From an uncultured bacterium (lineage in GTDB: Bacteria > Oederibacteriota > Oederibacteriia > Oederibacteriales > Oederibacteriaceae), in NCBI GenBank assembly GCA_965112635.1, contig OZ218778.1, forward strand, positions 2,016,001-2,080,000: DNA of 64,000 nt. Direction: 5' to 3'. The position numbers and the translations under genes are program-made. How positions within the stretch are numbered: position 1 is the stretch's first letter; each line of letters opens with the position of its first letter. This document shows positions 34,340 to 56,609 of this stretch, one piece after another. Below the pieces are notes generated by a model that worked only from the letters and a program-made list of their open reading frames with translations, searched no databases and was not told the origin of the DNA.

Positions 34340-34410
34340 AAACTAGTAAGGTAGGCTGGACTGCTTTGCAGAAGCCTGTAATTGCCGATTGACTGAGGCA
34401 ATTTTTTTAC
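34340..34410 (+). ncRNA. Flagellar leader RNA motif, copy 1 (riboswitch/attenuator-like)
   Basis: AGGCT-GGA-CTGC-TTT-GCAG-A-AGCCT plus AATTGCC-GATTGACTGA-GGCAATT; shared with 53116-53189. Confidence 0.75.
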
Positions 34411-34429
34411 AGCGATTTAGTTCGAGCCG

Positions 34430-34467
34430 ATCCTTACTGGTTTTTTACCAGTAAGGATTTTTTATTT
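34430..34467 (+). terminator. Leader terminator upstream of flgF
   Basis: 12-bp stem ATCCTTACTGGT/ACCAGTAAGGAT plus TTTTTATTT. Confidence 0.85.
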
Positions 34468-34483
34468 AGAAGGAGGGCTTCAA

Positions 34484-35272
34484 ATGATCGCTGGTATTTA
34501 TACCTCTGCTTCAGGAATGATCGCCTATCAAACCCAAATGGATGTTGTGGCGAATAATCTTGCCAATGTTTCCACGACTGGTTTTAAAAAAGACGAAGCC
34601 GTCTTCACGGCCTTTCCTTCCTGGGTCATTCATCGTGTCAATGACAATATCGTTCCCATGGGAAGCGGTGCATTAGATTTGAGGCCTGCCATCGGCGTGA
34701 GAGGCGGAGGCGTGCAAGTCATGGACAATAATGTCATCCCGCGTTTTGATCAAGGCTCTTTGCAAGGAACGGACAATCCTTTTGATCTTGCCATTGAAGG
34801 GTCCGGTTTTTTTTCAGTGCAGACTCCCCAGGGGATCCGGTATACCCGTAATGGAAATTTTACGCTAAGCAGCAATAAAGAGCTTGTCAATATGGAGGGG
34901 TGTCAAGTTTTAGGAAATGATAACAAGCCCATAGTCATAAATGGTGACAAGGTCAACGTGATCGGGGACGGCTCGGTCTATGTTGACGGCATAAAGACCA
35001 ATCAGGTCGCCCTGACCGAGTTTGCTAACCCCCAATCTCTGACCAAACAAGGCGATGGGTTGTTCATTGCTCCGCAGGGGGTGGCACTAAACACCGGGAC
35101 GCCACAGTCCAGAGTCCACCAGGGCTCTCTAGAGTCATCCAATGTCAATACAATTGGGGAAATGGTCAAAATGATCGCTACGATGAGAGCGTATGAGGCA
35201 AGCCAACGCATGATCAGTTACCAGGACAGCACGCTCGGACACGCGGTCAACGATATTGCCAGAATGGCTTAA
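34484..35272 (+). CDS. flgF: Flagellar rod protein FlgF/FlgG-like
   Basis: ANNLANVSTTGFK, YTRNGNF, LESSNV. Confidence 0.85.
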   Translation: MIAGIYTSASGMIAYQTQMDVVANNLANVSTTGFKKDEAVFTAFPSWVIHRVNDNIVPMGSGALDLRPAIGVRGGGVQVMDNNVIPRFDQGSLQGTDNPFDLAIEGSGFFSVQTPQGIRYTRNGNFTLSSNKELVNMEGCQVLGNDNKPIVINGDKVNVIGDGSVYVDGIKTNQVALTEFANPQSLTKQGDGLFIAPQGVALNTGTPQSRVHQGSLESSNVNTIGEMVKMIATMRAYEASQRMISYQDSTLGHAVNDIARMA

Positions 35273-35314
35273 AGAAGAAATTATTAAAATCTTAAGCAGA
35301 GGAGGAACGGTTAG

Positions 35315-36112
35315 ATGATGAGGACATTGTGGTCAGCTGCGTCAGGCATGTTGGCCCAGCAATTGAATATTGATACAATCAGTAATAACCTGGCGAATGT
35401 GAGCACGACAGGTTATAAGAAAAGCAGGGTGGAATTCCAAGATCTGTTGTATCAAACCATTCGACCTTCAGGTGTTCCGCTTTCTACGGGCACGCAAACA
35501 GCCATTGGGGTGCAGGTAGGCACAGGTACAAAACCTGTGGCTATCCAAAAGCTGTTCACCCAGGGAGAGACCACGATTACCAACAATCCTCTGGACCTAG
35601 AGGTTGACGGAGATGGCTTCTTCCAGGTATCCCAGCCTGATGGAACTATCGCCTATACAAGGGACGGGAGTTTCAACCAGGATGCTGCCGGGCATATCGT
35701 TACGCCAGACGGCAATTATTTGCAGCCTGAAATTTCTATTCCGCAAGATATAACCAGCGTCAGCATCAGCTCGGAAGGCAAGGTTTTTGGGACGGTCCCC
35801 GGACAAACCGACCAATCGCTTTTGGGCGAAATTGAGTTAGTGAAATTTGTCAACCCTGCCGGGCTTAATGCTTTGGGGGGCAATCTGTACGCCGCCACCT
35901 CTGCTTCCGGTGAACCTATCCAGGGTGTCCCCGGTGTCAATGGGTTCGGGTCCATCGCCCAAGGTTCCTTGGAAAATTCAAATGTGCAAGTCGTGGAAGA
36001 AATGGTGAACATGATCATATCCCAAAGGGCTTATGAAGTTAACGCCAAGGCCATCACGACGGCGGACCAGATGCTTTCGTTGGCCAATAACCTCAGGGGA
36101 CAGAACGCATAA
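35315..36112 (+). CDS. flgG: Flagellar distal rod protein
   Basis: SNNLANVSTTGYKKSRVEFQDLLYQ, YTRDGSF. Confidence 0.95.
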   Translation: MMRTLWSAASGMLAQQLNIDTISNNLANVSTTGYKKSRVEFQDLLYQTIRPSGVPLSTGTQTAIGVQVGTGTKPVAIQKLFTQGETTITNNPLDLEVDGDGFFQVSQPDGTIAYTRDGSFNQDAAGHIVTPDGNYLQPEISIPQDITSVSISSEGKVFGTVPGQTDQSLLGEIELVKFVNPAGLNALGGNLYAATSASGEPIQGVPGVNGFGSIAQGSLENSNVQVVEEMVNMIISQRAYEVNAKAITTADQMLSLANNLRGQNA

Positions 36113-36127
36113 TAGGGGGGCTGTAGC

Positions 36128-37114
36128 TTGAGACTCAGGATCGGTAGTTTATTAATTTTAGCTTTAGTGGCCCTCTGCGGTGCGGGGCAAACCAAAGATG
36201 GGTCGGGGTCGATATCCATCAAACTTAAAGCGGGCGCTTTAGTCAACGGCAAGGTAGTTTGTCTTAAGGATATCGCGTCCGTGGAAGGGGACGAGGCCCG
36301 GGTATCGCAGTTATTGGAGACCCCTCTCATCGACGCGCCTGCCCCTGCTGAAAGCGTCAAAATGACAGAGCAGCAGCTGGAAGCCATCCTGTTCAGGAAG
36401 GGCATTGATGCAAGCAGTTTTGCTATCAGTGGGGCCAGTGAGATCCAGATCACAGCAAATTTTAAGGAAATAAAGCATGATGATTTTATCGCCATGGTCA
36501 AAGATTACCTCCTCAAAACCATCAGGGTTGATCCCAACGAGCGCCTTACTTTGGACCCCATCTCTTTGCCTGGGGAAGGCGATCTTGTCCTGCCGCATGG
36601 CAACATTTCCGTTGAAGTGACCGGCGAGGTCAATCCGAAGAGCAAGCAGATCATGGTACCCGTAAGGATCAAGGTTGATGGGGTCTATTACAAACATTGT
36701 TCCGTTGCTTTTAAAGTTCACCGCCTAGCGGATGTCGCGGTGGCTAAAAGGAAGATGGAGCGGCACAAGGTCTTGGAGAACGAAGACATTACCATTGAAG
36801 AGAGAGATCTCAATGCCATGTCAGGCGAAGCGATCACTGACATCGGTAGTATTGTTGGAAAGAGGACCACGAGAGCCGTTGCCCCAAAACAGCCCGTGGT
36901 GGCCAGTATGGTCGAGATGCCTCCCCTGATCAAAAGGGGGGATGCGGTCACCGTGGTAGCTCGTTATAAGAACTTGCGGATCACCACTTTGGCCGAAGCC
37001 AAAGATGACGGTCGTTTAGGGGAAACCATTCGTTTGGAGAACGTGGATTCCAAGAAAGAGGTTAAGGCGATTGTAACCGGGGATAAGCAAGCAGAGATAG
37101 AAGTGAAATTATAG
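36128..37114 (+). CDS. flgA: P-ring chaperone
   Basis: SAF domain, IKRGDAV...DGRLGETIRLEN..SKK. Confidence 0.88.
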   Translation: MRLRIGSLLILALVALCGAGQTKDGSGSISIKLKAGALVNGKVVCLKDIASVEGDEARVSQLLETPLIDAPAPAESVKMTEQQLEAILFRKGIDASSFAISGASEIQITANFKEIKHDDFIAMVKDYLLKTIRVDPNERLTLDPISLPGEGDLVLPHGNISVEVTGEVNPKSKQIMVPVRIKVDGVYYKHCSVAFKVHRLADVAVAKRKMERHKVLENEDITIEERDLNAMSGEAITDIGSIVGKRTTRAVAPKQPVVASMVEMPPLIKRGDAVTVVARYKNLRITTLAEAKDDGRLGETIRLENVDSKKEVKAIVTGDKQAEIEVKL

Positions 37115-37130
37115 ATTCGAGGGGGTTTGT

Positions 37131-37757
37131 ATGAAAAAGTCGTTCGTTGTTCCGAAGATAATCCTTGCGGTCCTTCTGGCCAGTGTTTTAGGGTCCATTG
37201 CATTCGCGGACTCTTTATGGAGCCCCAATGGTTCAACGGATACCCCGAATTCCCTGTTTTCGGATAAAAGGTCTTTTAAAGTTGGCGATACGGTGGTGGT
37301 GCAGATCGTCGAGTCTGCCCAAGCGTCCCAGAACATTTCAACTTCAACACAAAAAGACGGATCACTCAGCGGCGGTGTGGGGACCAATCTAGCCGGCTCT
37401 ATGAACAATGCGGGCGGTGGTACCTGGTCGGGGGTGGGAGCTAATGAAACCTATAACGGGTTAGGAAAAAACTCGCGGAGCGGCTCTTTTCAAGGCACCA
37501 TCTCGGTAACGATTAACAAGGTTTTGCCCAACGGGAACCTGGAAATCAAGGGTAGCAGGGTCGTCACCATCAATGATGAGAAAGAGAATATCGAGGTTTC
37601 AGGGATAATACGTCCCTGCGACATCAATTCTTCCAATACGGTCCTTTCTACAGCGATCGCCGAAGCCCGGATATTATACGAAGGCAAGGGACCCTTGGGA
37701 GAAAAGGCACGCCCTGGCTTTTTGACCCGGTTATTGGATTGGTTGTGGATATTTTAA
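37131..37757 (+). CDS. flgH: L-ring protein
   Basis: LFSDKR...VGDTV, VLPNGNLEIKG, SGIIRP.DI. Confidence 0.92.
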   Translation: MKKSFVVPKIILAVLLASVLGSIAFADSLWSPNGSTDTPNSLFSDKRSFKVGDTVVVQIVESAQASQNISTSTQKDGSLSGGVGTNLAGSMNNAGGGTWSGVGANETYNGLGKNSRSGSFQGTISVTINKVLPNGNLEIKGSRVVTINDEKENIEVSGIIRPCDINSSNTVLSTAIAEARILYEGKGPLGEKARPGFLTRLLDWLWIF

Positions 37758-37779
37758 GAAGGACAAGGGGAGTTCAATT

Positions 37780-38901
37780 ATGTTGAGACGGCATTCAAGC
37801 ATAATAAAAGTTATTCTTTTCTTGCTGGCTGTCGGAGTCATGGCTCAATCTGCCGACGCCGGTAATGTGCGTGTTCGCAACGCAGCCAGGATACAGGGGG
37901 TCAGAGAGAATCAACTTTTAGGCTACGGGCTTGTCGTGGGGCTGCAGTCCACGGGTGACCGTCCTACCAGTATATACAGCACCGGCAACGTCACGGTTCA
38001 GACCGTAGTCAACATGCTGCAAAAATTTGGTGTGGTCGTCGCTCCAGGCCAGATCAAGCCGAACAATGTGGCCGCCGTGATGGTTTCAGCGACCTTGCCT
38101 CCTTTTGTTAAATCAGGGGATAAAATTGATGTGACCGCATCCTCAGTCGGGGACGCCAGAAGCTTGCAGGGAGGCACTCTGTTGGAGACGCCGCTTTTGG
38201 GAGCAGACGGAAATGTCTATGCCGTGGCCCAGGGGAGCGTCTCCGTAGGCGGAGCGGAAACGCAGCCTGGTTTTATTTTCCAAAAACTACCCGTCAACGC
38301 GGGCCGTATCCCTGAGGGGGCTTTGGTAGAAAAAGAAGTCCCCACCAGCATCGTAGAAAGAGGGACCTATTTAAATATTATCCTCAACAGGCCGGATTTC
38401 ACCTCGGCGACAAATCTTACGGATGTTATCAATAAGCAGTTCTGGGGACCTATTGCCAGCGCCAAGGATGCTGCGACCATCAAGATCGAGATACCCTTGG
38501 ATTATCAAAAGAATATCGTCGAATTTATTGCGGCCTTGGAAGGGCTGGATTTCGATGAAGAGGAGGTTTCCAACAAAGTCGTTATTAATGAACGTACGGG
38601 AACCATTGTGATGGGCTTTGACGTACGGATCGACACGGTCGCTATTTCACACGGGAACCTTAGTGTTTATATCTCTCCAGCGCAAGCCATTGTCAATGGA
38701 GGCATTCCCGGCGAGACCGTTAAAGTTCCCAAGGGCGATGAGGGCAAGGGGAACTTGTTGGTCATCCCCGGGGAGGCCGTATCGCTTTCGGAAGTTGTCG
38801 GAGTTCTGAATAGCATTGGCGCAACTCCCAAAGAAATGATTGCTATTATTCAGGCTATCAAAGACGCTGGCGCGTTGCACGCGACATTAGAGATCATGTA
38901 A
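37780..38901 (+). CDS. flgI: P-ring protein
   Basis: GVRENQLLGYGLVVGL, NVAAVMV, AGALHA. Confidence 0.95.
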   Translation: MLRRHSSIIKVILFLLAVGVMAQSADAGNVRVRNAARIQGVRENQLLGYGLVVGLQSTGDRPTSIYSTGNVTVQTVVNMLQKFGVVVAPGQIKPNNVAAVMVSATLPPFVKSGDKIDVTASSVGDARSLQGGTLLETPLLGADGNVYAVAQGSVSVGGAETQPGFIFQKLPVNAGRIPEGALVEKEVPTSIVERGTYLNIILNRPDFTSATNLTDVINKQFWGPIASAKDAATIKIEIPLDYQKNIVEFIAALEGLDFDEEEVSNKVVINERTGTIVMGFDVRIDTVAISHGNLSVYISPAQAIVNGGIPGETVKVPKGDEGKGNLLVIPGEAVSLSEVVGVLNSIGATPKEMIAIIQAIKDAGALHATLEIM

Positions 38902-38928
38902 ACCCAATAAATTTGGGGAGGCCACTGC

Positions 38929-39273
38929 ATGGACGGCATAAACAAAATCTCTTTGAACGCAAGTTCTTACGGGATACAAAAAATGTACGGCGCTAATTCC
39001 TCATCGCGTCGTCAGGCTGAGTCTGTTTCTCCCGCCCAACAAAAACAATTGGACAAATTAAAGGAAACTGCTCAAGAGTTTGAGTCGCTTTTCCTGTCTT
39101 CGATTTTAAATAAAATGAGTGATGTTATTTTCAAATCGGACCTGACCGAGGAAAGCAACGCCACGACAATTTTCAGAGAGATGCGCAACCAGGAGTTGGC
39201 GCGGTCGATGTCTAAAGCCGGCGGAATAGGGCTGAGCAAAATCCTATACGACCAATTATCGAAAAATATATAA
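38929..39273 (+). CDS. flgJ: Rod-binding FlgJ-like protein (no muramidase domain)
   Basis: LKETAQEFESLFL...GGIGLSKILYDQL. Confidence 0.85.
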   Translation: MDGINKISLNASSYGIQKMYGANSSSRRQAESVSPAQQKQLDKLKETAQEFESLFLSSILNKMSDVIFKSDLTEESNATTIFREMRNQELARSMSKAGGIGLSKILYDQLSKNI

Positions 39274-39294
39274 AAGGAGTTATCGGGGGCCGTT

Positions 39295-39591
39295 ATGGCG
39301 ATGGTGAATTGTACCAAGTGCGGAAAATTATTTCTCCAAGCGGGGGACAAGCCCATTTGTCTCGAATGTTTGTCTCTCGCGGCCAAAGATTATAAAAAGG
39401 TTCATAGTTTTCTAAAACAACATCCGGGAGCCAGGGTGGATGAGGTGAGCGAGAAAACAGGCATCAGCGAAACAATGATCCTGGATTTTTTAAGGGAAGG
39501 CAGGCTTTCTTTGCGGGTAAGCAAGAGTTCCGTGTGCCAGTCATGCGGGGTGCCGATCGATAAAGGAAGTTATTGCGATAAGTGTTCCTAA
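39295..39591 (+). CDS. YvyF-like flagellar operon Zn-finger/HTH protein
   Basis: NCTKCGKLF...ICLEC...FLREGRL...CQSCG...CDKC. Confidence 0.82.
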   Translation: MAMVNCTKCGKLFLQAGDKPICLECLSLAAKDYKKVHSFLKQHPGARVDEVSEKTGISETMILDFLREGRLSLRVSKSSVCQSCGVPIDKGSYCDKCS

Positions 39592-39612
39592 TAAATTACT
39601 GGGGAAGATACA

Positions 39613-40128
39613 ATGCAAAACAAATTACTTAAAGACCTTTGGAGCGTATTGCAGGAGGAAATAAACGTTTATAAGGAGCTCTACAAGCTTTCCGAAGAGG
39701 AGAACCGCTTGTTGGTCAACAACGACCTGGAAGCTTTCCAAAAAGTCGTGCAAAAACAGGAGAAGCTGATTTTGGAGATCCATACGATGGACAACGTGAG
39801 GCAAAAAGTGGCTTCGACCATGACCAAAGAACTAGGGGATTCATCCAAGGCGGCCAACATCCCCGACCTTTTTGACAGCTTGGAAGAAGGTGACAAAGCG
39901 AAATTAAAGCAGTTGCAAGGGCAAGTCGTCCAATTAAAAGAAAAGCTTGATGCGATCAACAAGACCAATGGCGTGCTGATATCCAATGCCCTCCAATATT
40001 TGAAGTTTTCCCACAGGATCTCAGGCGGCAAGCCGGAGAAAAATCCCCAGGGAGAGGTTTATAGCGATCTGAAGGAACCGAAAAAAAAGACACCACGCAA
40101 ATCTTCGACGATTGATACGAAGATCTGA
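39613..40128 (+). CDS. flgN: Flagellar export chaperone
   Basis: Helical FlgN pattern (L...N..N..LI); precedes flgK. Confidence 0.8.
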   Translation: MQNKLLKDLWSVLQEEINVYKELYKLSEEENRLLVNNDLEAFQKVVQKQEKLILEIHTMDNVRQKVASTMTKELGDSSKAANIPDLFDSLEEGDKAKLKQLQGQVVQLKEKLDAINKTNGVLISNALQYLKFSHRISGGKPEKNPQGEVYSDLKEPKKKTPRKSSTIDTKI

Positions 40129-40146
40129 GAAAAGGAGGTCGTCACT

Positions 40147-42351: not shown

Positions 42352-42453
42352 GATAAGGCGTAAAGCAGGTTTTTCGTCCTTTTGAGGGGTTTTTTGTTGC
42401 CAGAAAAGAAAAAAGGACGCCCCACCAGGTGTCATATTTTATTCCTAGATTTA

Positions 42454-42523: not shown

Positions 42524-44338
42524 GTGAAAAATTTACTTAAAAAGCGTATTTTGGTCCTGGGGTTTGTTTTGACTTTTGGCTGGTCATCCTCTGTTTGGGC
42601 TGCGGATTGGCCGATTTTTCATTTTGACGGCAGTTCCGGTTTTACCACGGACAGTATTGGGGCGCAGAATCTGGAGAGGTGGAATCATCCTTGTCCCAAT
42701 GCACCCACTTCATGCGTAGTGATTAATGGTTTCACCTATTACACCACCCAAGCAGGAGTTTATAAACTGGACAGCACCGGAGCTCTATCCTCCACTTGGC
42801 CGATAAATCCGGTCAATCCTTCCAGTCTTTCCACAACCTACTACACGATGCCGGCTTACTGGAATAGCGTGATCTATGTCGGGGCCTGGGACCCTACCCA
42901 ATCCAGTAAGAACGGCGTTTATGCGATCAAAACTGCTGATGGCTCTGCGTATTGGACCAATCCGCCGACCTGTCCTGGTTACTGCAACTACAATACCTCC
43001 CAGATCAATACCTACGCGGCTCCCATAGTCGGAAATGCCGGAGCGGTGGAGGCTGTTTTTGTGGGGGATACTGGCGGTAATATTTACGCTTTTGACACGA
43101 CCAAAACAATCCCTACCGCTCTCTGGAGCCACAACCTGGGAACCATGGGACTTTATTCCACTCCGGCTTATTGGACAGATGGAACAGATGCCTGGGTCTA
43201 TTTTGCAATGGTTGCCAGTAACCCCATCAATAGCAAGATATACAAAGTTTTTGCGTCCAGCGGTTTTTGGTTTGGCCCGCCCTTCGGTGTTCATTCCAAT
43301 CCCTGGGCTTGGCCGGCGGTAGGGACCGTAGAAGGTTTTTATTCCTCGCCGGCTGTGGACAGCAGCGGCAATGTATATGTTGGATGCGATAACGATAATG
43401 TCTATTCTATATCTTTGACCGAGACGATGAATTGGACCTTTACGGCTGGGGATGTCGTAAGATCGAGCCCTGCAGTAGCCACGCTGGGCGGGACTCACTA
43501 TGTTTTTGTGGGTTCCAACGACGGCAATCTCTATGCGCTCAATGCGAATACTGGAGCGCAGATATGGAATTATCAGGTGGGAGTCCCTGGTTACGCCGCA
43601 TTGGGTGCTCCGGCAATCAGCCGGGATGGCCTGGTTTATTTTGGCAGCGGGAGTCTCTCGGCTAATATGTATATTTTTCAGGGCAATCCACTTCCATCCA
43701 CTACGCCTCAAGTGGTAGCCACGGTAGGCCCGTGGGGTGTTAACAGCATATTATCCCCAGCACTCAGCGATACAACCGCAGGCGGCGGATTTCCTGCCGC
43801 TTATGTTGCCGCGGATAAAATCTATTGCTTGGGACCGACCTATACTTTGACCCAGTCGGCTACGCCTACGGTGACTGGGACGCCCGGCCCGCCTAGCACT
43901 TCAACGCCAACTTTGACGCCCTTGACTCCGTTTAATACTCCCACTATTACCGTAACATTCACCTGCACTTTGACTCCCACAATTACCACGACGGCCACTG
44001 CCACTCAGACAACTACCATGACCCCCACCATCAGCCCCACTAGTACTCTTACCCTGACATTGACGCCGCCCCCGTATATCATCGTATATCCCAATCCGAT
44101 GAATTTCAGCCAATATAAAGGGGTTAAGATCATCGGAACGCCTATTCTTGGCGCCGATATTGCCATCTATACTATTTCAGGAGAAACAGTGAGAAAGGTT
44201 TCCAAAAATACAGCTTACCCATTTATTTGGGACGGTAATAATGACGACGGTGTACCTGTGGTCACGGGCCTTTATCTCTATATCATCAACACCGCTGACG
44301 GCAATAGCATCAAAGGCAAGTTAGCCATCATTCGTTAA
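42524..44338 (+). CDS. Secreted PQQ-like beta-propeller with Thr/Pro linker and T9SS-like/FlgD-Ig C-terminal domain
   Basis: Signal peptide, SSPAV...VYVG repeats, TPT tract, VYPNP...IYTISGETV...WDG...GLYLY...KLAIIR. Confidence 0.85.
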   Translation: MKNLLKKRILVLGFVLTFGWSSSVWAADWPIFHFDGSSGFTTDSIGAQNLERWNHPCPNAPTSCVVINGFTYYTTQAGVYKLDSTGALSSTWPINPVNPSSLSTTYYTMPAYWNSVIYVGAWDPTQSSKNGVYAIKTADGSAYWTNPPTCPGYCNYNTSQINTYAAPIVGNAGAVEAVFVGDTGGNIYAFDTTKTIPTALWSHNLGTMGLYSTPAYWTDGTDAWVYFAMVASNPINSKIYKVFASSGFWFGPPFGVHSNPWAWPAVGTVEGFYSSPAVDSSGNVYVGCDNDNVYSISLTETMNWTFTAGDVVRSSPAVATLGGTHYVFVGSNDGNLYALNANTGAQIWNYQVGVPGYAALGAPAISRDGLVYFGSGSLSANMYIFQGNPLPSTTPQVVATVGPWGVNSILSPALSDTTAGGGFPAAYVAADKIYCLGPTYTLTQSATPTVTGTPGPPSTSTPTLTPLTPFNTPTITVTFTCTLTPTITTTATATQTTTMTPTISPTSTLTLTLTPPPYIIVYPNPMNFSQYKGVKIIGTPILGADIAIYTISGETVRKVSKNTAYPFIWDGNNDDGVPVVTGLYLYIINTADGNSIKGKLAIIR

Positions 44339-44353: not shown

Positions 44354-45469
44354 TTGAAAATTTTATTGTGGCCGGCAACAATATCCCGTCCTAAGGCCGA
44401 GCCCCAAAACCATAGAGGTGTTTTAGTCGGCAGTGCCGCAATGAACCCAGCCACAATCCCCGATATCAAACCTTGTCCACGGTGGACATCACGACTGCTT
44501 CTGGGAATAGCAGTTTTATTGGTATTCCCGGCTTTAAACGCTCAGAAGGCCATGGCTCAAGAGTCTCGTGGGGGGACAACGGCCGCCAATTTTCTGAAGA
44601 TAGGTGTGGGGGCCAGGCCGCTGGGCATGGGCGGAGCCTACGTGGCTATTGCCGATGACTCGAGCAGCGCTTACTGGAACCCGGCGGGATTAGCCAATAT
44701 GGACGCTCAAGTCATCCAATTGGAGCACGCGGAATGGTATGAAGGCATACAATATGAATATTTTGTCGTTGCCCAGCCCGCAGAGTCCTTCGGCCTTCCT
44801 ATTTGGGGCGCTATGGCCTTCTCTTGGTATTATTTGCACATGGGTGATATCCAGCGGACCTTAGAAGACAATATGAGCGGCGACGTGGTCATTCCAGGCG
44901 GCTCCTATTCCGCGGCAGACAGTATTCTTGCCATTTCGTACGGGGGCCAGCTGACCAATTTCCAGGCTTTTGGCATTGGTCTGAAATTCCTGAATCAAAA
45001 GCTGGATTATCTAAATAATAGCGGGATGGCATTTGATTTTGGGATCCAAAGCGCGGCGCCATTAAAAAATTTAAAGATAGGCCTGACCCTGTCCAATATG
45101 GGCCAGGATTTTATGGGCAGCCCGTTACCCACTACATTTAAAATGGGTGTTAATTATAAACTTGCCGGGAGGGGATTCCCCGGCGAATGGAACAACGAGA
45201 TAGACGGGTTGCTGCCGCTGATCAATAGCGATCAAATACCCCAGGCCCTTTTTGGCTCGGAATATGCCATCAACATGAGCACTCAAAAATATTCGTTCCG
45301 GGTCGGGTATGACACGGGTAGAGAGATTGGAACTGCTTTTACAGGGCTTTCCCTTGGCCTAGGATACCTTATCCGATTGGGAAGGTTGGACCTGGGAATA
45401 GATTACGCCTATCTATTTCAGGGAGACTTTGGCGCGACCCACCACTTTACTCTCAATTTAACTTTTTAA
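44354..45469 (+). CDS. PorV/PorQ-family beta-barrel protein
   Basis: FLKIGVGARPLGMGGAYVAIADD...YWNPAGL; C-terminal DYAY...THHFTLNLTF; true start probably downstream. Confidence 0.85.
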   Translation: MKILLWPATISRPKAEPQNHRGVLVGSAAMNPATIPDIKPCPRWTSRLLLGIAVLLVFPALNAQKAMAQESRGGTTAANFLKIGVGARPLGMGGAYVAIADDSSSAYWNPAGLANMDAQVIQLEHAEWYEGIQYEYFVVAQPAESFGLPIWGAMAFSWYYLHMGDIQRTLEDNMSGDVVIPGGSYSAADSILAISYGGQLTNFQAFGIGLKFLNQKLDYLNNSGMAFDFGIQSAAPLKNLKIGLTLSNMGQDFMGSPLPTTFKMGVNYKLAGRGFPGEWNNEIDGLLPLINSDQIPQALFGSEYAINMSTQKYSFRVGYDTGREIGTAFTGLSLGLGYLIRLGRLDLGIDYAYLFQGDFGATHHFTLNLTF

Positions 45470-49231: not shown

Positions 49232-49240
49232 GAGACAGGA

Positions 49241-51146: not shown

Positions 51147-51148
51147 TC

Positions 51149-52504
51149 ATCAAAGATATCACTCCTAGATTTTCAAAATATCATGAAAAGTTAACCGAAG
51201 TAAAACTCAGACAACTCCATGGTAAGGTCGAAGATTTAATTGGTATTGTTATCGAGGGTGTAGGGCCGAAGACTTTTATCGGAGAAATTTGCGATATTTG
51301 CTCTCCTCTCGACGGGCAGCGAGTCAAGGCTGAGGTAGTAGGTTTCAAGGGCAACAGAATGGTCCTCATGCCTTTGGGAGAAATGAGAGGTATTTCTCCG
51401 GGTAGCGAGATCATCCCCACCGGAAGTCCATTTGAGGTAGTTGTCGGCGATGATTTATTAGGCAGAGTCATTGACGGACTAGGAAACCCTTTAGATGACA
51501 AAGGACCCATCAGGGGCCAGTCCACTTATCCTGTCCACCAGTTTCCCTCTCATCCCTATAGCAGGCAGCGTATCCATGAGATCCTTGTCACTGGGGTACG
51601 CGCGATCGATGGTTTGTTGACATGTGGGCAGGGCCAGAGGATCGGTATATTTTCCGGCAGTGGTGTTGGAAAAAGCACGCTGCTAGGTATGATCGGAAGA
51701 TATACTGAAGCTGATGTCAATGTTATTGCACTAGTCGGTGAGAGAGGCAGGGAAGTCAGGGATTTTATTGAGAAGGACCTTGGCGAAGCCGGGCTGAAAA
51801 GATCCGTGGTGGTGGCGGCCACCTCTGACCAACCCCCGCTGGTCAGAGTGCAGGGCGCTTTTGTTGCAACCGCCATTGCAGAATATTTTAGAGATCAAGG
51901 GAAAAAGGTCATTTTAATGATGGATTCTGTCACACGTCTGGCGATGGCCCAAAGAGAGATAGGCCTGGCGATAGGTGAGCCACCCGCAACAAAAGGATAT
52001 ACCCCTTCTGTATTTTCAATGTTACCCAGATTGCTAGAACGAGCGGGTACTACTTCACACCAAGGCAATATTACGGGAATTTATACTGTTCTGGTCGAGG
52101 CGGATGATATCAATGAGCCAATCTCAGACGCGGTGCGTGCTATTTTGGATGGTCATATAGTTCTATCCAGGGAGTTGGCCTCCCAGAATCATTATCCCCC
52201 TATTGATATCCTCGAAAGCATCAGCAGGCTCATGAACGACCTAGTTCCGAAGTACCACAAGAATATCGCGGGGCAGATCCGGGAATATTTGGCTGTTTAT
52301 AAAAACGCGAGGGATTTGATAAATATCGGGGCCTATGTCTCTGGCAGCAACCCCAAAATTGATGCTGCTTTGCATTATGTGAATACAATAGAATCGTTTT
52401 TGAAACAGGCTGTTGAAGAAAAGTCTTCATTCCAAGAAACCATAGATGGGATGGGGAAATTGTTCGTTTCGGCCCCTTCTGACCAAAAACAACCTGCTTT
52501 ATAA
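51149..52504 (+). CDS. fliI: Flagellar export ATPase (frame open upstream of 51359; non-canonical start)
   Basis: GSGVGKS, GERGRE, DSVTR; N-terminal GKVEDLIGIVIEGVGP in frame. Confidence 0.94.
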   Translation: MKDITPRFSKYHEKLTEVKLRQLHGKVEDLIGIVIEGVGPKTFIGEICDICSPLDGQRVKAEVVGFKGNRMVLMPLGEMRGISPGSEIIPTGSPFEVVVGDDLLGRVIDGLGNPLDDKGPIRGQSTYPVHQFPSHPYSRQRIHEILVTGVRAIDGLLTCGQGQRIGIFSGSGVGKSTLLGMIGRYTEADVNVIALVGERGREVRDFIEKDLGEAGLKRSVVVAATSDQPPLVRVQGAFVATAIAEYFRDQGKKVILMMDSVTRLAMAQREIGLAIGEPPATKGYTPSVFSMLPRLLERAGTTSHQGNITGIYTVLVEADDINEPISDAVRAILDGHIVLSRELASQNHYPPIDILESISRLMNDLVPKYHKNIAGQIREYLAVYKNARDLINIGAYVSGSNPKIDAALHYVNTIESFLKQAVEEKSSFQETIDGMGKLFVSAPSDQKQPAL

Positions 52505-52531
52505 ACTCAAAAATCGGGGTATTGAGCATAA

Positions 52532-52978
52532 TTGAAAAAATTTAGCTTTTCATTACAGCCTGTCTTGGATTATCGGAAAACTATCGAAGAAGCCTTAAAA
52601 AGGGAGTTTTCTGCCTCCCAATCAGTTTTGCAAGAGGATATGCGTCATCTCGAGGTTTTGGTTGATAAAAAGGATGATTGTCAAGACGAGTTGGCCAAGA
52701 AAAGAACTAAAGATATGGGAATACAGGAATTAAGCGAATATCAAAATTATCTGGATCTGATAATGCAGAATATTAGGGGACAAAAAGTTAAAATACAGGC
52801 AGATTTAAAGGAAATAGACGAAAAGAGGACCCAACTAACAGAAGCTTCAAAGAAAAAGAAGGTTTTAGAGCGTCTGAGAGAAAAACACCTGTTATTGTTT
52901 ATGAAAACACTGGATAAGTGGGAACAGCATTTTCTCGATGAAATCTCGAGAAATCGGTATATTAGCGAAAAGCTTTGA
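52532..52978 (+). CDS. fliJ: Flagellar export protein
   Basis: MKKFSFSLQPVLDYR...EQHFLDE. Confidence 0.92.
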   Translation: MKKFSFSLQPVLDYRKTIEEALKREFSASQSVLQEDMRHLEVLVDKKDDCQDELAKKRTKDMGIQELSEYQNYLDLIMQNIRGQKVKIQADLKEIDEKRTQLTEASKKKKVLERLREKHLLLFMKTLDKWEQHFLDEISRNRYISEKL

Positions 52979-53064
52979 TATTGCTGGGGTTGTAGGATTT
53001 TCAGGGTTAAATTCATTTTATAAAGTTTTTTTCAGGGTATTTCAGAGACTTTTAAGGGGTACCC

Positions 53065-53092
53065 TTGACAAAGCTGGATCTAGGAGTATAAA
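53065..53092 (+). promoter_or_regulatory. Sigma70-type promoter of the fliK operon
   Basis: TTGACA-16-TATAAA. Confidence 0.6.
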
Positions 53093-53115
53093 TAAGAATA
53101 GAAACAGAAAAATTT

Positions 53116-53206
53116 AGGACATAAATGGCTGGACTGCTTAGCAGAAGCCAATGGTTGCTGAATGAATGAAGCAATCAGTTTTATGTCCTCACGTTGCAGG
53201 TGAGGA
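53116..53206 (+). ncRNA. Flagellar leader RNA motif, copy 2
   Basis: P1 AGGACATAAA/TTTATGTCCT encloses TGGCT-GGA-CTGC-TTA-GCAG-A-AGCCA and TGGTTGCT-GAATGAATGA-AGCAATCA. Confidence 0.75.
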
Positions 53207-53366
53207 AAATGAGAGCGGTCAATTTAGATCTCAAAAAAGATTTCCTAACCCACCAAAGTTTTTTTCTTGAAGTTTATCTTTCTCAATTCATGAAGAATAT
53301 ATTTGATGATTGTTTGTTGCTGCCTCATTGTTTTTGTTTGATTCCTGCAGAAGGGAGGCAGATCAA

Positions 53367-55646
53367 ATGATTATCAATCAACCCTCCCAGGCACTACCTA
53401 TCTTGAATTTCCTTGATGGTGCTGGCAATCAATCGCAGCAGGGAACACCTGGTGGCCAGACATTCAGTGATGCTTTCATTGCGGCTAGCCAGGGATTGGC
53501 TGGCCTGCCTATTTCACCCGCCATTCAAAATAGTCCCAACACAATAAATGTCGATCCTGAAAAAATAAACCAGGCTACCATGCAGTTAATAAGCGACGTT
53601 AATTCGATGCCAGTCTCGAATCAAAATCATGCCTGGAATAATGTTCCTGATCAGTTAGTCCAATCCCAAAAATCCAATGAGGTCAATTTATTCGGAAATG
53701 GCTATAATGCCATGACAATAGATAATCTGCAGGTCCAGCAAAACAGTGTTCCCTCCAATCAAGGCGTGATGAGTAACGGCGCACCCTCTTTACCTTACAT
53801 TGATAACGAGAGTGAGGCAAACGGTTCATTTGAGCTTAAGACCCAGGGCGTATTTGGCAGCAACAATATCGTGCCGCAGCAAGGTCAAGAACAGCAGGGT
53901 CTTGTGGTAAGCCAAAAGCAAATGCAGGTGTCCGCTTCAGATTCCATAAAAGAGAATAGCTCTATTGATGCTGCGACAATGTCGCCCGCGAGTGAAAACA
54001 TCCTGGGCAGCCAGATTGATTCAGTGAGCCAGGATATCTTCGCTTCCTCAAATCTAAGTGCATTGACAGATTCCAGCAAAGTTAGTCCAGTTGCTAGTTT
54101 AATTTATGGACACGAACTTGGCTCTCCAGCTGTTTCGCAGTTCTCCGGACCAAGCGCAGATCCTTTATTAAGTACTGCCGGACCCAATATCCAAGTTCAA
54201 CCGCAAGCAGTTGCTTCGCCTGTTCCACTATACCGGGGAGATCAGCCAGTTCTCTATTCAGATAGCGGAAGCATGGGAACATTTGGGACGGAAAATTCGG
54301 TAACTCTTAGCCGGCAAGATAGTGATGGACAAACGAAGGACATGGCTCAACCGACAGCTACCCAATCGAGCATCATGGCGGGAGCTTTGTGGGCCAGTGC
54401 TGTCAATCAGGGAGCCTATTTTATTCCTGAGGCTGAGAGCAATTCTATTGCTACTAATAATGCGACTTCGTCAGAAGCACTTACGAGCAATGCAGCGGGA
54501 GCTGGGTTAAACGTAGTAACTGACGACCAATTGAGTAGCCAAGGTGCCTTAAATAATGACGCTGTGCTGAATGTGAGCAGTACGACGGAAGGTCAAAATT
54601 TGGATTTATCAAATTATCAAGACGTATTTAATCAGGTTACTGGTACGCAAGCGGGAACCGGCTCCCTCAATAATTCACCATCAGAAAAGATGCTTTCTAT
54701 GCAAAGCAGCTACGATATAAATAAGTCGATTGATGATGAGCTGCCGGTTGTTTCAGAGAATGTTTTAGGTGCACCGCAGTCTTCCAATACCCCAGTTATA
54801 CCTGCATCAAATTACGTTGTTGCAGCGAACACCCAGGTTCCCGCAATAAACGCAGTTCTTTCCGGCCAGTTTGGCCAGAATATAGGGGTAGCCAACGCAA
54901 AATCCAATATTGTGGTGCTAAATCAAAATCACGAGGTTCTGCCCGAGACCGTTTCTTCCCTAGATAATAATGGCAACAACTTCGTTCAAAATCCTCAAAA
55001 TACCGGAAATCCCCTTGAATTAAAGGCATTTGTTGGCCTTATGGGCAGTGGCGGCCTGTCAATCTCCGGAGGCAATAATTTTAACGGAAGTAGCAGCTTG
55101 CCGATCATAGCTCCCCAAGTGAAACCGGAGGACCTGCAGATTGGCTTAAACCCCAGCGTTGTGGATTTAGCCAGCAGCCGGCCTGGTAACAGTGATATGA
55201 AAATCCTCCAAAATAATGTGCAGAAATCGGTCAATGATGAGGTATTCAGCCAAATTGTTGAAAAGGCTAACCTTATGATAAATGCAGGAGTCAGTCAGAT
55301 CAATATTGTGCTTAAACCAGAACATTTAGGGACCCTGTTGCTCCAAGTCACTCATACCCAGAATGCTCTTTCCGCCTCAATCCAAACCCCCAATGCTGCG
55401 GTCAGCGATGTCCTTAAGTCCCAGTTGGGAGCTTTAAAGACATCTCTTGCGGCTGAGGGAGTCCATCTGCAAAATTTAAATGTTTTCACGGGGAGCAATT
55501 TTAACCAGAACGGGAACAATGCGGGTAATTGGGAAAGGGCGGATTACCCTAACATTTTGCCGGTTTCATTGAGATCTATTTCTAGCGAAGATAATTATTC
55601 CCTGAACCGTATCGGCAGCGACAGTTTAGTGGATGTTTTTGCTTAA
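53367..55646 (+). CDS. fliK: Hook-length control protein (759 aa)
   Basis: Low-complexity S/N/Q region; C-terminal LKPEHLG...LKTSL..EG; precedes flgD. Confidence 0.88.
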   Translation: MIINQPSQALPILNFLDGAGNQSQQGTPGGQTFSDAFIAASQGLAGLPISPAIQNSPNTINVDPEKINQATMQLISDVNSMPVSNQNHAWNNVPDQLVQSQKSNEVNLFGNGYNAMTIDNLQVQQNSVPSNQGVMSNGAPSLPYIDNESEANGSFELKTQGVFGSNNIVPQQGQEQQGLVVSQKQMQVSASDSIKENSSIDAATMSPASENILGSQIDSVSQDIFASSNLSALTDSSKVSPVASLIYGHELGSPAVSQFSGPSADPLLSTAGPNIQVQPQAVASPVPLYRGDQPVLYSDSGSMGTFGTENSVTLSRQDSDGQTKDMAQPTATQSSIMAGALWASAVNQGAYFIPEAESNSIATNNATSSEALTSNAAGAGLNVVTDDQLSSQGALNNDAVLNVSSTTEGQNLDLSNYQDVFNQVTGTQAGTGSLNNSPSEKMLSMQSSYDINKSIDDELPVVSENVLGAPQSSNTPVIPASNYVVAANTQVPAINAVLSGQFGQNIGVANAKSNIVVLNQNHEVLPETVSSLDNNGNNFVQNPQNTGNPLELKAFVGLMGSGGLSISGGNNFNGSSSLPIIAPQVKPEDLQIGLNPSVVDLASSRPGNSDMKILQNNVQKSVNDEVFSQIVEKANLMINAGVSQINIVLKPEHLGTLLLQVTHTQNALSASIQTPNAAVSDVLKSQLGALKTSLAAEGVHLQNLNVFTGSNFNQNGNNAGNWERADYPNILPVSLRSISSEDNYSLNRIGSDSLVDVFA

Positions 55647-55675
55647 ATATTCTTAATCTTAAGGAGGTGAGTGAG

Positions 55676-56104
55676 ATGTCTACAGGCATTGGCAGTATCT
55701 TGAGCAGTTTGACCAGTAGTGCAAACACCACAAAGGACACTAATGCGTTAGCTTCTGGCCAAGCATTGACCGAGTCTGATTTTCTGAATATGCTGATCAC
55801 AGAGCTGGAGAACCAGGACCCGACCAATCCGGTGGATGATACGCAGATGGCCTCGCAAATGGCCCAATTCAGTTCCCTGGCAGCCATGACCAATATGTCG
55901 ACGACCCTGCAGTCCATGAGCAATTCCGAGTCTTTATACAGCGGAGTGGCGATGATAGGCAAAACTATCGCGGCGACAGACCCCAAGACCGGAGCAGTGA
56001 CCCAGGGAGTCGTCAGCCAAGTCCACATTGACGGCACCGGCAATACGACGCTTTTGGTGGGGAATTCGACCGTACCTTTATCCAATGTAACAACCGTAAT
56101 GTAA
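55676..56104 (+). CDS. flgD: Hook capping protein
   Basis: FLNMLITELENQDPTNP...QMAQFS. Confidence 0.94.
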   Translation: MSTGIGSILSSLTSSANTTKDTNALASGQALTESDFLNMLITELENQDPTNPVDDTQMASQMAQFSSLAAMTNMSTTLQSMSNSESLYSGVAMIGKTIAATDPKTGAVTQGVVSQVHIDGTGNTTLLVGNSTVPLSNVTTVM

Positions 56105-56137
56105 AGAAACATAAACCATTAAAGGAGGTGATATCAG

Positions 56138-56527
56138 GTGGTAGATAGGATCCAGTCCCTAGGACAGACTCAAAACATTCCAGATTTGCTAAAAGACAGA
56201 GCTGTCAAAAAGCCCGCTAATGCTGGACCCTCATTCCAGGATGTTTTCCAAGGTGCGGCGGATAAGACCTCCCCGGTCAAATTTTCCGCGCATGCGCTAC
56301 AAAGGCTGCAAATGAGGAATATCCAGCTCAGCCCCCAGGATCTTTCCAAGATTGATGGGGCAGTCAATAAGGCAGCGAGCAAAGGGGCGCGCGAGTCATT
56401 GTTGGTAATGAACAATAATCTGGCGTTAGTGGTCAGCGTCAAGAACCGCACGGTCATTACGGCTGTGGACGGCCAGAGCATGAAAGACAATGTGTTCACC
56501 AACATTGATAGTGCGGTGATTCTATAA
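56138..56527 (+). CDS. TIGR02530-type flagellar operon protein of unknown function
   Basis: KFSAHALQRLQMRNI...KGARESL...VVSVKNRTVITA...NVFTNIDSAVI; between flgD and flgE. Confidence 0.88.
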   Translation: MVDRIQSLGQTQNIPDLLKDRAVKKPANAGPSFQDVFQGAADKTSPVKFSAHALQRLQMRNIQLSPQDLSKIDGAVNKAASKGARESLLVMNNNLALVVSVKNRTVITAVDGQSMKDNVFTNIDSAVIL

Positions 56528-56547
56528 AGTTAGAAAAATTATGTATT

Positions 56548-56609
56548 GTTCAAGCTGGACCTCGTTGAGGAAGCTTGAATCGGGGAGCCCAATAGTAAAT
56601 TGGGACTCC
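56548..56609 (+). ncRNA. Flagellar leader RNA motif, copy 3 (first hairpin with compensatory changes)
   Basis: TTCAAGCT-GGA-CCTC-GTT-GAGG-A-AGCTTGAA, then a different second hairpin GGAGCCCAAT/ATTGGGACTCC. Confidence 0.7.

What the first reader, a model, noticed from the sequence alone, without database searches (positions are those of the whole stretch)
34340..56609. Covarying RNA motif in three flagellar leaders (flgF, fliK, flgE): candidate undescribed riboswitch or protein-responsive regulon
Seen: the same hairpin RGCT-GGA-C(NNN)-NNN-(NNN)G-A-AGCY occurs at 34352-34378, 53126-53150 and 56548-56580. The 3x1 internal loop (GGA/A) and the 3-nt apical loop length are invariant, while the stems covary (CTGC/GCAG vs CCTC/GAGG; GGCT/AGCC vs AGCT/AGCT). 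Copies 1 and 2 add a second hairpin with the 10-nt loop GAWTGAMTGA and a compensatory closing pair (C-G vs T-A). They are enclosed by sequence-unrelated P1 stems (GTAAGG/TTTTAC; AGGACATAAA/TTTATGTCCT), giving a three-way junction. All copies are intergenic, sense-oriented and 5' of rod or hook genes; two follow sigma70-like promoters. Knowledge: by eye it does not match the c-di-GMP-I/II, c-di-AMP or M-box consensus, and CsrA sites usually have GGA in apical loops. Inference: a cis-regulatory RNA coordinating rod/hook synthesis.
Basis: partly seen in the sequence, partly recalled or inferred. Interest (0 to 1): 0.88.

Follow-up and report, generated by a model that had tools for sequence, protein, structure and literature searches.

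The report
Conserved RNA hairpins before flagellar rod/hook genes
A small two-hairpin RNA structure sits just upstream of flagellar rod and hook genes in this genome and in well over a hundred others, matches no catalogued RNA family, and probably lets the cell tune how much rod and hook protein it makes.

Summary
The hairpin H1 (GGCY-GGA-C…G-R-RGCC) occurs 3 times in the window against 0.22 expected, upstream of flgF, fliK and flgE. A fourth copy lies elsewhere in the genome.

It is a conserved RNA. Covariance models found 82 instances in 94 loci: 96.4% of cells paired against 82.7% shuffled and 39-49% slid, and 14 of 15 pairs show double changes. RNAalifold on an independent MAFFT alignment gave the same two hairpins.

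Of the 82, 53 lie between flgF and flgG and 20 between a TIGR02530-type gene and flgE. All 20 further flgE leaders fetched from 12 families carry H1. In a second, larger phylum 98 of 151 sampled genomes have it.

No Rfam 15 family matches and five literature searches found no description.

CsrA and FliW are not found in this genome.

Mechanism is unresolved. I favour a binding site for an unknown trans-acting factor, acting here partly through an intrinsic terminator (copies 1 and 4). The rivals are a riboswitch and an mRNA-processing or stabiliser element.

The parts
34297..34324 (+). Sigma-70-like promoter upstream of copy 1 (TTGACA, 16 nt, TG-n-TATCAT)
   Evidence: 11 of 12 positions match, with an extended -10. 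This is a consensus match only; no transcript data exist.
34343..34351 (+). 5' flank of copy 1 that can pair with the 5' arm of the downstream terminator (candidate antiterminator strand)
   Evidence: Read: 9 complementary positions, one of them G-U. The centroid fold shows this long-range pairing, whereas the MFE shows the terminator. Inference.
34354..34376 (+). Copy 1, hairpin H1: 4-bp outer stem, GGA/A internal loop, 4-bp inner stem, 3-nt loop
   Evidence: CM R1 scores 80.7 bits and R2 61.7 bits.
34380..34403 (+). Copy 1, hairpin H2: 7-bp stem and a 10-nt loop of the form GA-NN-GA-NN-GA
   Evidence: H2 is in the MFE. The loop type recurs in most of the 82 instances.
34429..34466 (+). Intrinsic-terminator-like hairpin plus U run between copy 1 and the flgF ribosome-binding site
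   Evidence: 13 pairs, 5 of them G-C, followed by a T run. It is present in the MFE. A nearly identical terminator follows copy 4.
34484..35272 (+). flgF (proximal rod), the gene downstream of copy 1; flgG follows at 35315-36112
   Evidence: Pfam Flg_bb_rod, LlgE_F_G_D1 and Flg_bbr_C.
53065..53092 (+). Promoter-like TTGACA-16-TATAAA upstream of copy 2
   Evidence: Read by eye. The scan does not list it, because it requires T at position 6 of the -10.
53127..53149 (+). Copy 2, hairpin H1
   Evidence: in the MFE and the centroid. R1 scores 82.5 bits.
53153..53176 (+). Copy 2, hairpin H2 (10-nt loop)
53310..55646 (+). fliK (hook-length control). The likely start is the ATG at 53367, which follows a GGGAGG Shine-Dalgarno.
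   Evidence: Pfam Flg_hook. ORF and translation. The start is inferred from the sequence folded.
56138..56527 (+). TIGR02530-type 'flagellar operon protein' (Pfam Flagellar_put). It is the gene immediately upstream of the flgE-type motif in nearly all genomes.
   Evidence: (sources name relatives TIGR02530 family).
56549..56579 (+). Copy 3, hairpin H1 (8-bp outer stem, GGA/A loop, CCTC/GAGG inner stem)
   Evidence: It is syntenic with the flgE leaders of 20 of 20 other genomes.
56584..56609 (+). Copy 3, second hairpin with a 5-nt loop (variant H2)
   Evidence: in the MFE and the centroid.
56634..58373 (+). flgE (hook), the gene downstream of copy 3
   Evidence: Pfam Flg_bb_rod, FlgE_D2 and Flg_bbr_C.

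Best explanation
This is a previously uncatalogued, widely conserved structured RNA element carried in the mRNA just upstream of flagellar axial-structure genes. These are chiefly flgE and flgG; in this genome they are flgF, fliK, flgE and one unknown gene. Its core is hairpin H1, whose asymmetric internal loop (GGA on the 5' side, one purine on the 3' side) and flanking G-C pairs are almost invariant. H1 is usually followed by hairpin H2, which has a GA-rich loop.

I read the invariant unpaired purines as a recognition site for a trans-acting factor. A protein is more likely than a small ligand. This factor would adjust output of rod and hook subunits.

In this genome two of the four copies (flgF leader and copy 4) are followed by a strong intrinsic terminator, and the 5' flank of copy 1 can pair with that terminator's 5' arm. 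Control there would therefore act on transcription read-through. Where the element lies 15-60 nt from the start codon, as in copy 3 and most relatives, control would act on translation or mRNA stability.

Shown: the structure, its conservation, its gene association and its absence from Rfam. Inferred: that a factor binds it, which factor, and the direction of control.
For: Structure.
- 82 instances: 96.4% of cells paired against 82.7% shuffled and 39-49% slid; 14 of 15 pairs have double changes.
- RNAalifold on an independent MAFFT alignment of 23 sequences gives the same two hairpins; 12 of 16 pairs are compensatory.
- Many G-U pairs are present (UG 20 at pair 13/48, UG 18 at pair 75/105). 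These would be C-A mismatches on the other strand, so the structure belongs to the sense RNA.

Invariant unpaired bases.
- G9 82 of 82, G10 82 of 82, A11 79 of 82.
- The closing C-G pair 82 of 82.
- The 3' loop base is A in 49, G in 32 and C in 1.

Gene association.
- 53 flgF|flgG, 20 TIGR02530|flgE, plus single cases before flgD, flgB, flgF and fliK.
- 20 of 20 further flgE leaders from 12 families carry H1.
- A copy precedes a flagellin gene in one genome (L243).

Portability, meaning different upstream genes but the same class of downstream gene.

Terminators.
- 13 bp plus a U run after copy 1, and a near-identical one after copy 4.
- The alternative pairing appears in the centroid fold.
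- A long hairpin with a U-rich tail follows the motif in L083.

Range: 50 of 99 genomes of the window's own phylum at E<=0.1 and 98 of 151 sampled genomes of a second phylum at E<=0.01.

Precedent: in Campylobacter jejuni, CsrA co-immunoprecipitation enriches flgE and flgG2 mRNAs (PMC4894983, table passage read). This shows that rod and hook mRNAs can be protein-bound targets.
Against: - No binding factor is identified.
- In most relatives no terminator and no Shine-Dalgarno-sequestering helix follows the motif. My loose scan found terminator-like sites after only 17 of 82 instances, most of them weak. A switching mechanism is therefore not evident there.
- In two genomes a well-conserved copy sits after flgF, is followed by a terminator, and has no flagellar gene downstream (L241 and L247). 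This fits a 3'-end or stand-alone RNA role as well as a leader role.
- The intercistronic position before the more abundant subunit also fits a constitutive stoichiometry device.
- No transcript data exist.
Confidence: 0.5

Rival explanations
1. Constitutive RNA processing and stabilisation element. The operon mRNA is cut near the motif, and the stable hairpins protect the flgE or flgG segment (or the upstream segment). This raises output of the abundant subunits relative to their neighbours, with no sensing involved.
For: - The motif lies before flgG and flgE, which I recall are needed in many more copies than FlgF, FlgD or FliK.
- 53 and 20 of the 82 instances are intercistronic.
- An A-rich unstructured spacer and a strong Shine-Dalgarno follow H2 in flgE leaders.
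- Most instances lack any switch-like platform.
- Precedent: stem-loops set subunit stoichiometry in the cip-cel operon of Ruminiclostridium cellulolyticum (PMC10311766; only the title and the start of the abstract were seen, in the listing).
Against: - A mere stabiliser does not need an invariant GGA/purine internal loop or a conserved GA-NN-GA-NN-GA loop across two phyla.
- Copies 1, 2 and 4 in this genome follow promoter-like sites rather than genes of the same operon.
- Copies 1 and 4 are followed by terminators.
Confidence: 0.25
2. A new riboswitch class. H1 and H2 form an aptamer for a small molecule or second messenger that governs motility, with terminator or translational expression platforms.
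For: - The conserved structured domain has different downstream arrangements: a terminator in copies 1 and 4, and close apposition to the Shine-Dalgarno in flgE leaders.
- Alternative folds exist around copy 1.
- Flagellar genes are known riboswitch targets: the table of GEMM-associated genes in PMC1950547, read.
Against: - There is no multi-helix junction or pseudoknot.
- Sequence is conserved inside the stems.
- Most instances have no recognisable switching helix.
- The motif sits inside operons and only before certain structural genes, rather than at the head of the flagellar regulon.
- There is no similarity to any Rfam riboswitch.
Confidence: 0.15
3. A CsrA (FliW-controlled) binding site, as in flagellin leaders of Bacillus and Campylobacter.
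For: An invariant GGA. CsrA binds many flagellar mRNAs, including flgE, in C. jejuni (PMC4894983).
Against: - CsrA (PF02599) and FliW (PF02623) were not found in this one-contig genome, which is 96.9% complete, while the control genomes gave hits.
- GGA lies in an internal loop between two helices, not in a hairpin loop or over the Shine-Dalgarno.
- It lacks the upstream A of the C. jejuni motif (C/A)A(A/T)GGA quoted.
Confidence: 0.03
4. A DNA-level signal: an alternative-sigma promoter or a palindromic operator.
For: H1 is an imperfect inverted repeat. The start of H2 resembles a sigma-28 -10 box, and H1 has GG…GC spaced somewhat like a sigma-54 promoter. Both consensus sequences are recalled, not taken from a call.
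Against: - G-U pairs and compensatory changes preserve pairing only on the sense strand.
- The asymmetric 3x1 loop misaligns any half-sites.
- The GG-to-GC spacing is about 8 nt with the usual 3-nt loop and varies with stem length.
- No TAAA lies at the right distance from the H2 box.
Confidence: 0.02

Closest known systems
Termite-flg (RF01729) and flg-Rhizobiales (RF01736) RNA motifs
   Same: These are candidate cis-regulatory structured RNAs found by comparative genomics upstream of flagellar genes. They are listed in PMC2864571 (passages read).
   Different: Neither model, nor any other Rfam 15 model, matches the window or 20 diverse instances. Their reported ranges (termite hindgut metagenome, Rhizobiales) differ from the Firmicutes-type genomes found here.
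CsrA-bound flagellin leaders (Bacillus hag, Campylobacter flaA)
   Same: These are short leader hairpins with an essential GGA that give post-transcriptional control tied to flagellar assembly. In C. jejuni, rod and hook mRNAs are also CsrA-associated.
   Different: Here the GGA is in an internal loop. The genome lacks detectable CsrA and FliW. The main targets are flgE and flgG, not flagellin.
c-di-GMP riboswitches before flagellar operons (GEMM)
   Same: A structured leader RNA controlling flagellar genes, often through a terminator (gene table in PMC1950547).
   Different: There is no sequence or structure match. There is no conserved junction. The position is inside operons, before single structural genes.
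Autogenous ribosomal-protein leaders (for example the L10 and S15 leaders)
   Same: Small, phylum-wide conserved hairpins with invariant loop bases in front of structural-protein genes, bound by a protein to match synthesis to assembly. This describes how I think the element works; it is not a membership claim.
   Different: The only Rfam hits to such leaders are weak and off-target: L10 at 19.9 bits against a gathering score of 44, and S15 at 22.8 bits elsewhere in L227. No binding protein is known here.
Selective RNA processing and stabilisation stem-loops (cip-cel operon, Ruminiclostridium)
   Same: Intercistronic stem-loops that set subunit stoichiometry (PMC10311766; listing only).
   Different: As far as I recall, those are stability hairpins without a conserved loop sequence. 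This element has invariant unpaired bases across phyla.

Membership tests
Any Rfam 15 family (including c-di-GMP-I/II, Termite-flg, flg-Rhizobiales) | Score at or above the family's gathering threshold with its covariance model | tested here: not met
   - 0 matches on the whole window at gathering score.
- At E<=10 on 34200-34500 there are 6 weak matches, the best being the L10 leader at 19.9 bits against 44.
- 20 diverse instances (58,947 bases) at E<=1 give 1 unrelated match away from the motif.
Riboswitch | Conserved structured domain with covariation in the 5' region of the regulated gene | tested here: met
Riboswitch | Expression platform with mutually exclusive helices (terminator/antiterminator or Shine-Dalgarno sequestration) linked to the aptamer | tested here: inconclusive
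   A clear terminator with a possible antiterminator is present in copy 1, and a terminator in copy 4. There are 17 loose terminator-like sites among 82 instances. No Shine-Dalgarno-sequestering helix is seen in the printed leaders.
Riboswitch | Ligand pocket formed by a junction, pseudoknot or docked loops | tested here: not met
   The consensus is two separate hairpins. P1 is absent from the folds of copy 2 and from relatives. No loop-loop complementarity was found by eye.
Riboswitch | Direct, specific binding of a small molecule | not testable with these tools
   Needs in-line probing or ITC.
CsrA/RsmA target | CsrA encoded in the genome | tested here: not met
   PF02599: 0 matches in G000, while 3 control genomes give hits. 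FliW (PF02623): 0 matches.
CsrA/RsmA target | GGA presented in a hairpin loop and/or overlapping the Shine-Dalgarno | tested here: not met
   GGA is in the 3x1 internal loop in 82 of 82 aligned instances.
Selective processing/stabiliser stem-loop | Intercistronic position adjoining the segment to be stabilised | tested here: met
   53 flgF|flgG and 20 TIGR02530|flgE among 82.
Selective processing/stabiliser stem-loop | A mapped endonucleolytic cut and differential segment stability | not testable with these tools
   No RNA run was listed for this organism.
ANTAR- or RAT-type protein-dependent antiterminator target | Two hexaloop hairpins (ANTAR), or a single RAT hairpin overlapping the terminator; these definitions are recalled | tested here: not met
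   The H1 loop is 3 nt and the H2 loop 10 nt. Neither hairpin overlaps the terminator at 34429-34459.

The most novel reading that the evidence does not exclude
The element is the RNA receptor of an unrecognised flagellar assembly feedback. An unknown protein reads the GGA internal loop and the GA-rich loop, and couples synthesis of rod, hook and sometimes filament subunits to the state of export. Candidates are the always-adjacent TIGR02530 protein or an unexported axial subunit. The promoter-motif-terminator units of this genome (copies 1 and 4) and the flgF-motif-terminator units of other genomes would yield short decoy RNAs that titrate that protein. This would give a mechanism for the assembly-stage-dependent post-transcriptional control of FlgE reported for Salmonella. 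I saw that report only as a title in a reference list.
Probability: 0.2. Interest if true: 0.85.

Novelty: new member of a known kind. Interest (0 to 1): 0.7.

Why it matters
Flagellar assembly is a textbook case of ordered construction. Known post-transcriptional control, however, centres on flagellin (CsrA/FliW, FlbT) and on whole-regulon switches such as c-di-GMP. How cells match the very different copy numbers of rod and hook proteins encoded in one operon, and how hook-protein synthesis responds to assembly stage, is largely open.

This element is about 60 nt long and strongly covarying. It precedes flgE and flgG in two phyla of Firmicutes-type bacteria and is absent from Rfam. It gives a concrete handle on that question: it can be mutated, used as bait for its partner, and probed for ligands.

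It also adds a widespread family to RNA catalogues and would improve annotation of flagellar loci in uncultured lineages.

Tried and rejected

2. RNA evidence: the look-up of sequencing runs listed no RNA holder, only five small-share DNA metagenome rows. I did not lay reads. This says nothing about expression.

3. CsrA/FliW as the partner is rejected for this genome.

4. SRP-RNA mimicry. I considered this because ftsY lies upstream and FlhF is an SRP-type GTPase (recalled). I fetched the genome's SRP RNA. By eye, its helix-8 region does not resemble H1, so I rejected the idea.

5. Sigma-54 promoter, sigma-28 promoter and palindromic-operator readings are rejected on spacing, asymmetry and G-U pairs. 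The consensus sequences were recalled.

6. K-turn, K-loop and loop-E readings of the internal loop and the H2 loop were considered from recalled consensus rules and do not fit. No tool tested this.

7. The TIGR02530 protein as an RNA-binding candidate.
   - Pfam gives only Flagellar_put plus a sub-threshold DUF4258 match (E 0.21, 15 residues).
   - The PDB profile search found nothing below E 0.9.
   - The AlphaFold2 model has mean pLDDT 76 with a well-folded C-terminal half.
   - Foldseek against the PDB gave no match with E<=0.001; the best was 0.2.
   - So there is no support either way.

8. Co-occurrence. Families f5 and f9 are flagellated but lack TIGR02530 (0 of 4 and 0 of 11 genomes). 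The two flgD-flgE junctions I read there have an intergenic gap of about 20 nt and no motif. With only two junctions and adjacent features, this is not evidence of partnership.

9. The 161-aa ORF after copy 4 has no Pfam family at E<=0.1. Atlas look-alikes are unnamed or 'cell wall anchor' clusters at 0.93-0.94 with recognition below the stated bar. I left it as unknown.

10. My relaxed hairpin scan of the whole genome returned over a hundred loose hits. Only the four known copies have the full pattern, so the scan is too permissive to add members.

11. In one search my strand list was wrong for 8 of 30 loci, which were printed as reverse complements. The 7 'no context' rows there are therefore artefacts. 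I use that call only for the 23 rows with context.

12. In one search the choice of 'nearest hit' confused paralogous rod and hook proteins. It was redone by best score.

13. Literature.
   - Searches, plus term look-ups in PMC1950547, PMC5737381, PMC2864571, PMC1913097, PMC11109978, PMC8632094, PMC6429828 and the 2026 bioRxiv preprint 10.64898/2026.10.21.760802, found no description of this motif.
   - Supplementary tables of those surveys are closed and could list it.
   - PMC94591 (Bonifield et al. 2000) is not held. I saw only its title in a reference list.

Full report
WHAT IS IN THE WINDOW

The three sites exist as described. H1 reads outer stem GGCT/AGCC (AAGCT/AGCTT in copy 3), then GGA on the 5' side and a single A on the 3' side. 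The inner stem is CTGC/GCAG (CCTC/GAGG in copy 3), closed by a 3-nt loop.

The pattern GCTGGAC-N9-GAAGC matches three times, all on the + strand, against 0.22 expected. None of 100 shuffles reaches three.

Pfam places the copies as follows:
- Copy 1 lies between ftsY and flgF-flgG-flgA.
- Copy 2 lies between fliJ and fliK-flgD.
- Copy 3 lies between a TIGR02530-type 'Flagellar_put' gene and flgE.

Copies 1 and 2 carry H2, a 7-bp hairpin with a 10-nt loop. Copy 3 carries a different second hairpin at 56584-56609.

In the whole genome (one contig, 2.88 Mb) the exact pattern occurs five times. Four of these can form the inner stem. The fourth is at G000:C1:1010349. It has H1 and H2, a third hairpin, and a terminator almost identical to the one after copy 1. 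It precedes a 161-aa low-complexity ORF with no Pfam family.

IS IT A REAL RNA STRUCTURE?

A covariance model built from the three two-hairpin copies found matches at E<=1 in 43 of 99 genomes of the window's phylum. A second model built from 56 hits found 50 of 99 at E<=0.1.

On that alignment:
- 96.4% of cells form standard pairs, against 82.7% after shuffling (0 of 500 shuffles reach this).
- 39-49% pair when the 3' partners are slid.
- 14 of 15 pairs show changes on both sides, in 177 cells.

That alignment is fitted to the model. I therefore also ran RNAalifold on a plain MAFFT alignment of 23 diverse instances. It predicts the same H1 with its 3x1 loop and the same H2, and 12 of 16 pairs have compensatory changes.

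G-U pairs are frequent. The structure therefore exists only on the sense strand as RNA.

The unpaired bases are nearly invariant:
- G9 and G10 in 82 of 82; A11 in 79 of 82.
- The C-G pair that closes the inner stem in 82 of 82.
- The 3' loop base is A in 49 and G in 32.
- The H2 loop follows GA-NN-GA-NN-GA in most instances.

WHERE IT OCCURS

Context by best blastx hit:

| Context | Instances |
|---|---|
| flgF and flgG | 53 |
| TIGR02530 gene and flgE | 20 |
| After a TIGR02530 gene at a contig end | 1 |
| Between two tandem flgE paralogues | 1 |
| Before flgD | 1 |
| About 260 nt before flgB | 1 |
| Window copies before flgF and fliK | 2 |
| No recognisable neighbour (L001, L178, L179) | 3 |

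In the flgF-flgG cases the motif ends a median of about 48 nt before the flgG start.

The model favours the two-hairpin form. I therefore fetched the TIGR02530-flgE junction from 20 genomes of 12 families, most of which had given no hit. All 20 carry H1. The inner stems are 3-10 bp long and covary freely. H1 is followed by a short hairpin, an A-rich spacer and the Shine-Dalgarno.

The flgE leader is therefore the general home of the element. The flgG form occurs in a subset of families.

In families without a flgG-type hit, the FlgF and FlgG match coordinates leave roughly 40-65 nt between the two genes in the genomes I compared. That is little room for the two-hairpin form.

Two flagellated families lacking TIGR02530 have flgD abutting flgE, with no motif in the two junctions read.

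Outside the phylum:
- 24 of 80 flgG loci from named public records carry the motif at E<=0.0012. All are labelled Bacillota, Firmicutes, Clostridia, Limnochordia, Sporomusaceae or Veillonellaceae, except one MAG labelled Betaproteobacteria. None of the loci labelled with other phyla carries it.
- In the phylum of one of these genomes, 98 of 151 sampled genomes have a hit at E<=0.01, often two.

Twelve extra copies from multi-copy genomes of that phylum lie as follows:
- Four before flgE.
- One before a short FlgE/FlgG-like gene.
- Four before flgG.
- One before a flagellin gene.
- Two after flgF, followed by a terminator, with no flagellar gene downstream.

IS IT KNOWN?

Rfam 15 has no matching family:
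- No hit on the window at gathering score.
- Only weak, unrelated matches on the copy-1 region at E<=10.
- One unrelated match over 20 diverse instances at E<=1.

The two catalogued flagellar motifs, Termite-flg and flg-Rhizobiales (PMC2864571), and the c-di-GMP classes are all in that library.

Five full-text searches, plus term look-ups in eight motif-discovery papers, found no description.

HOW IT MIGHT WORK

Shown:
- Copy 1 follows a near-consensus promoter and precedes a 13-bp terminator with a U run, then the flgF ribosome-binding site.
- Copy 4 has the same layout.
- Nine bases just 5' of H1 in copy 1 are complementary to the terminator's 5' arm. The centroid fold shows this pairing, whereas the MFE shows the terminator.

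Inferred: whatever stabilises H1 and H2 decides between these folds.

In most relatives I see no terminator and no helix covering the Shine-Dalgarno. Any control there would be by occlusion, recruitment or stability.

The near-invariance of unpaired purines and of the adjoining pairs, within two otherwise independent hairpins, looks more like a protein site than a ligand pocket.

CsrA is the obvious GGA reader, and in C. jejuni it associates with flgE and flgG2 mRNA (PMC4894983). However, neither it nor FliW is found in this genome, and the GGA is not in a hairpin loop.

I tested the always-adjacent TIGR02530 protein for an RNA-binding fold and found nothing significant.

The position before the abundant subunits, and the copies left behind after flgF, keep a constitutive processing or stabiliser role alive. 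They also keep alive a decoy-RNA variant of the factor model.

VERDICT

This is a genuine, widespread and apparently uncatalogued structured RNA family tied to flagellar hook and rod genes.

Its three-way-junction and riboswitch picture is the weaker part.

I put 0.5 on a factor-binding regulatory leader, 0.25 on a constitutive processing or stability device, 0.15 on a riboswitch, and a few per cent on CsrA or DNA-level readings.

Noticed in passing
G000:C1:1004000-1018000 (L181); motif copy 4 at L181 about 6345-6402, ORF at 6559-7044: The fourth motif copy and its 161-aa Ser/Thr/Gly/Gln-rich ORF, which has a run of seven His, lie between two Mutator-family transposase genes in opposite orientation (L181 1513-2745 on + and 8227-9459 on -). 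The two transposases have the same length and the same Pfam scores. A PMT_2/YkcB-type glycosyltransferase lies beside them. It looks like a composite-transposon-like island that carries a flagellar-type leader.
   Followed up: partly
window 39295-39591 (+): A 98-aa protein with Cys-X2-Cys pairs at both ends and a helix-turn-helix-like middle. Pfam gives only sub-threshold DZR_2 and HTH hits. It sits between a Rod-binding (FlgJ-like) gene and flgN, where an anti-sigma factor gene is often found. It resembles what I recall of the YvyF 'flagellar operon protein' of Bacillus (recalled, not tested).
   Followed up: partly
window 42524-44338 and 44354-45469 (+): Two non-flagellar-looking genes lie between flgK and a second FlgN-like gene. 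One is a 604-aa protein with beta-propeller (PQQ_2-like) matches and a weak FlgD_ig/CHU_C-like C-terminus. The other is a 371-aa protein with weak PorV/outer-membrane barrel matches. No flgL was recognised at this position.
   Followed up: no
whole genome G000: No CsrA and no FliW were detectable in a flagellated, one-contig genome. As far as I recall, this is unusual among Firmicutes-type flagellates.
   Followed up: partly
L241 (G211:C56) and L247 (G144:C45): Well-conserved motif copies lie directly after flgF and are followed by a terminator-like hairpin with a U run. No flagellar gene lies downstream. In the same genomes flgG sits elsewhere with its own copy (L242, L248). These are possible stand-alone or 3'-UTR RNAs carrying the motif.
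   Followed up: partly
L243 (G211:C6): A motif copy lies upstream of a gene whose product begins like a flagellin. This was recognised by eye from the N-terminal sequence; no Pfam run was made. If confirmed, it extends the gene set beyond rod and hook genes.
   Followed up: no
window 56138-56527 and relatives (A9): The TIGR02530 protein family (4,673 relatives at E<=1e-5) has a disordered N-terminus and a conserved C-terminal domain with invariant His, Arg, Lys and Asn residues. There is a sub-threshold DUF4258-like start. The model has mean pLDDT 76, and blocks from residue 51 on average 86-95, but it has no significant PDB neighbour. The function of this widespread flagellar gene appears unknown.
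   Followed up: partly
L072, L073, L074, L077, L079 (high-GC MAG records): In these genomes the motif lies 190-380 nt upstream of flgG. My loose terminator scan flagged weak hairpin-plus-T-rich sites with similar 3' arms after the motif in all five. I read the full spacer only in L072. This may be an attenuator plus an internal promoter.
   Followed up: no
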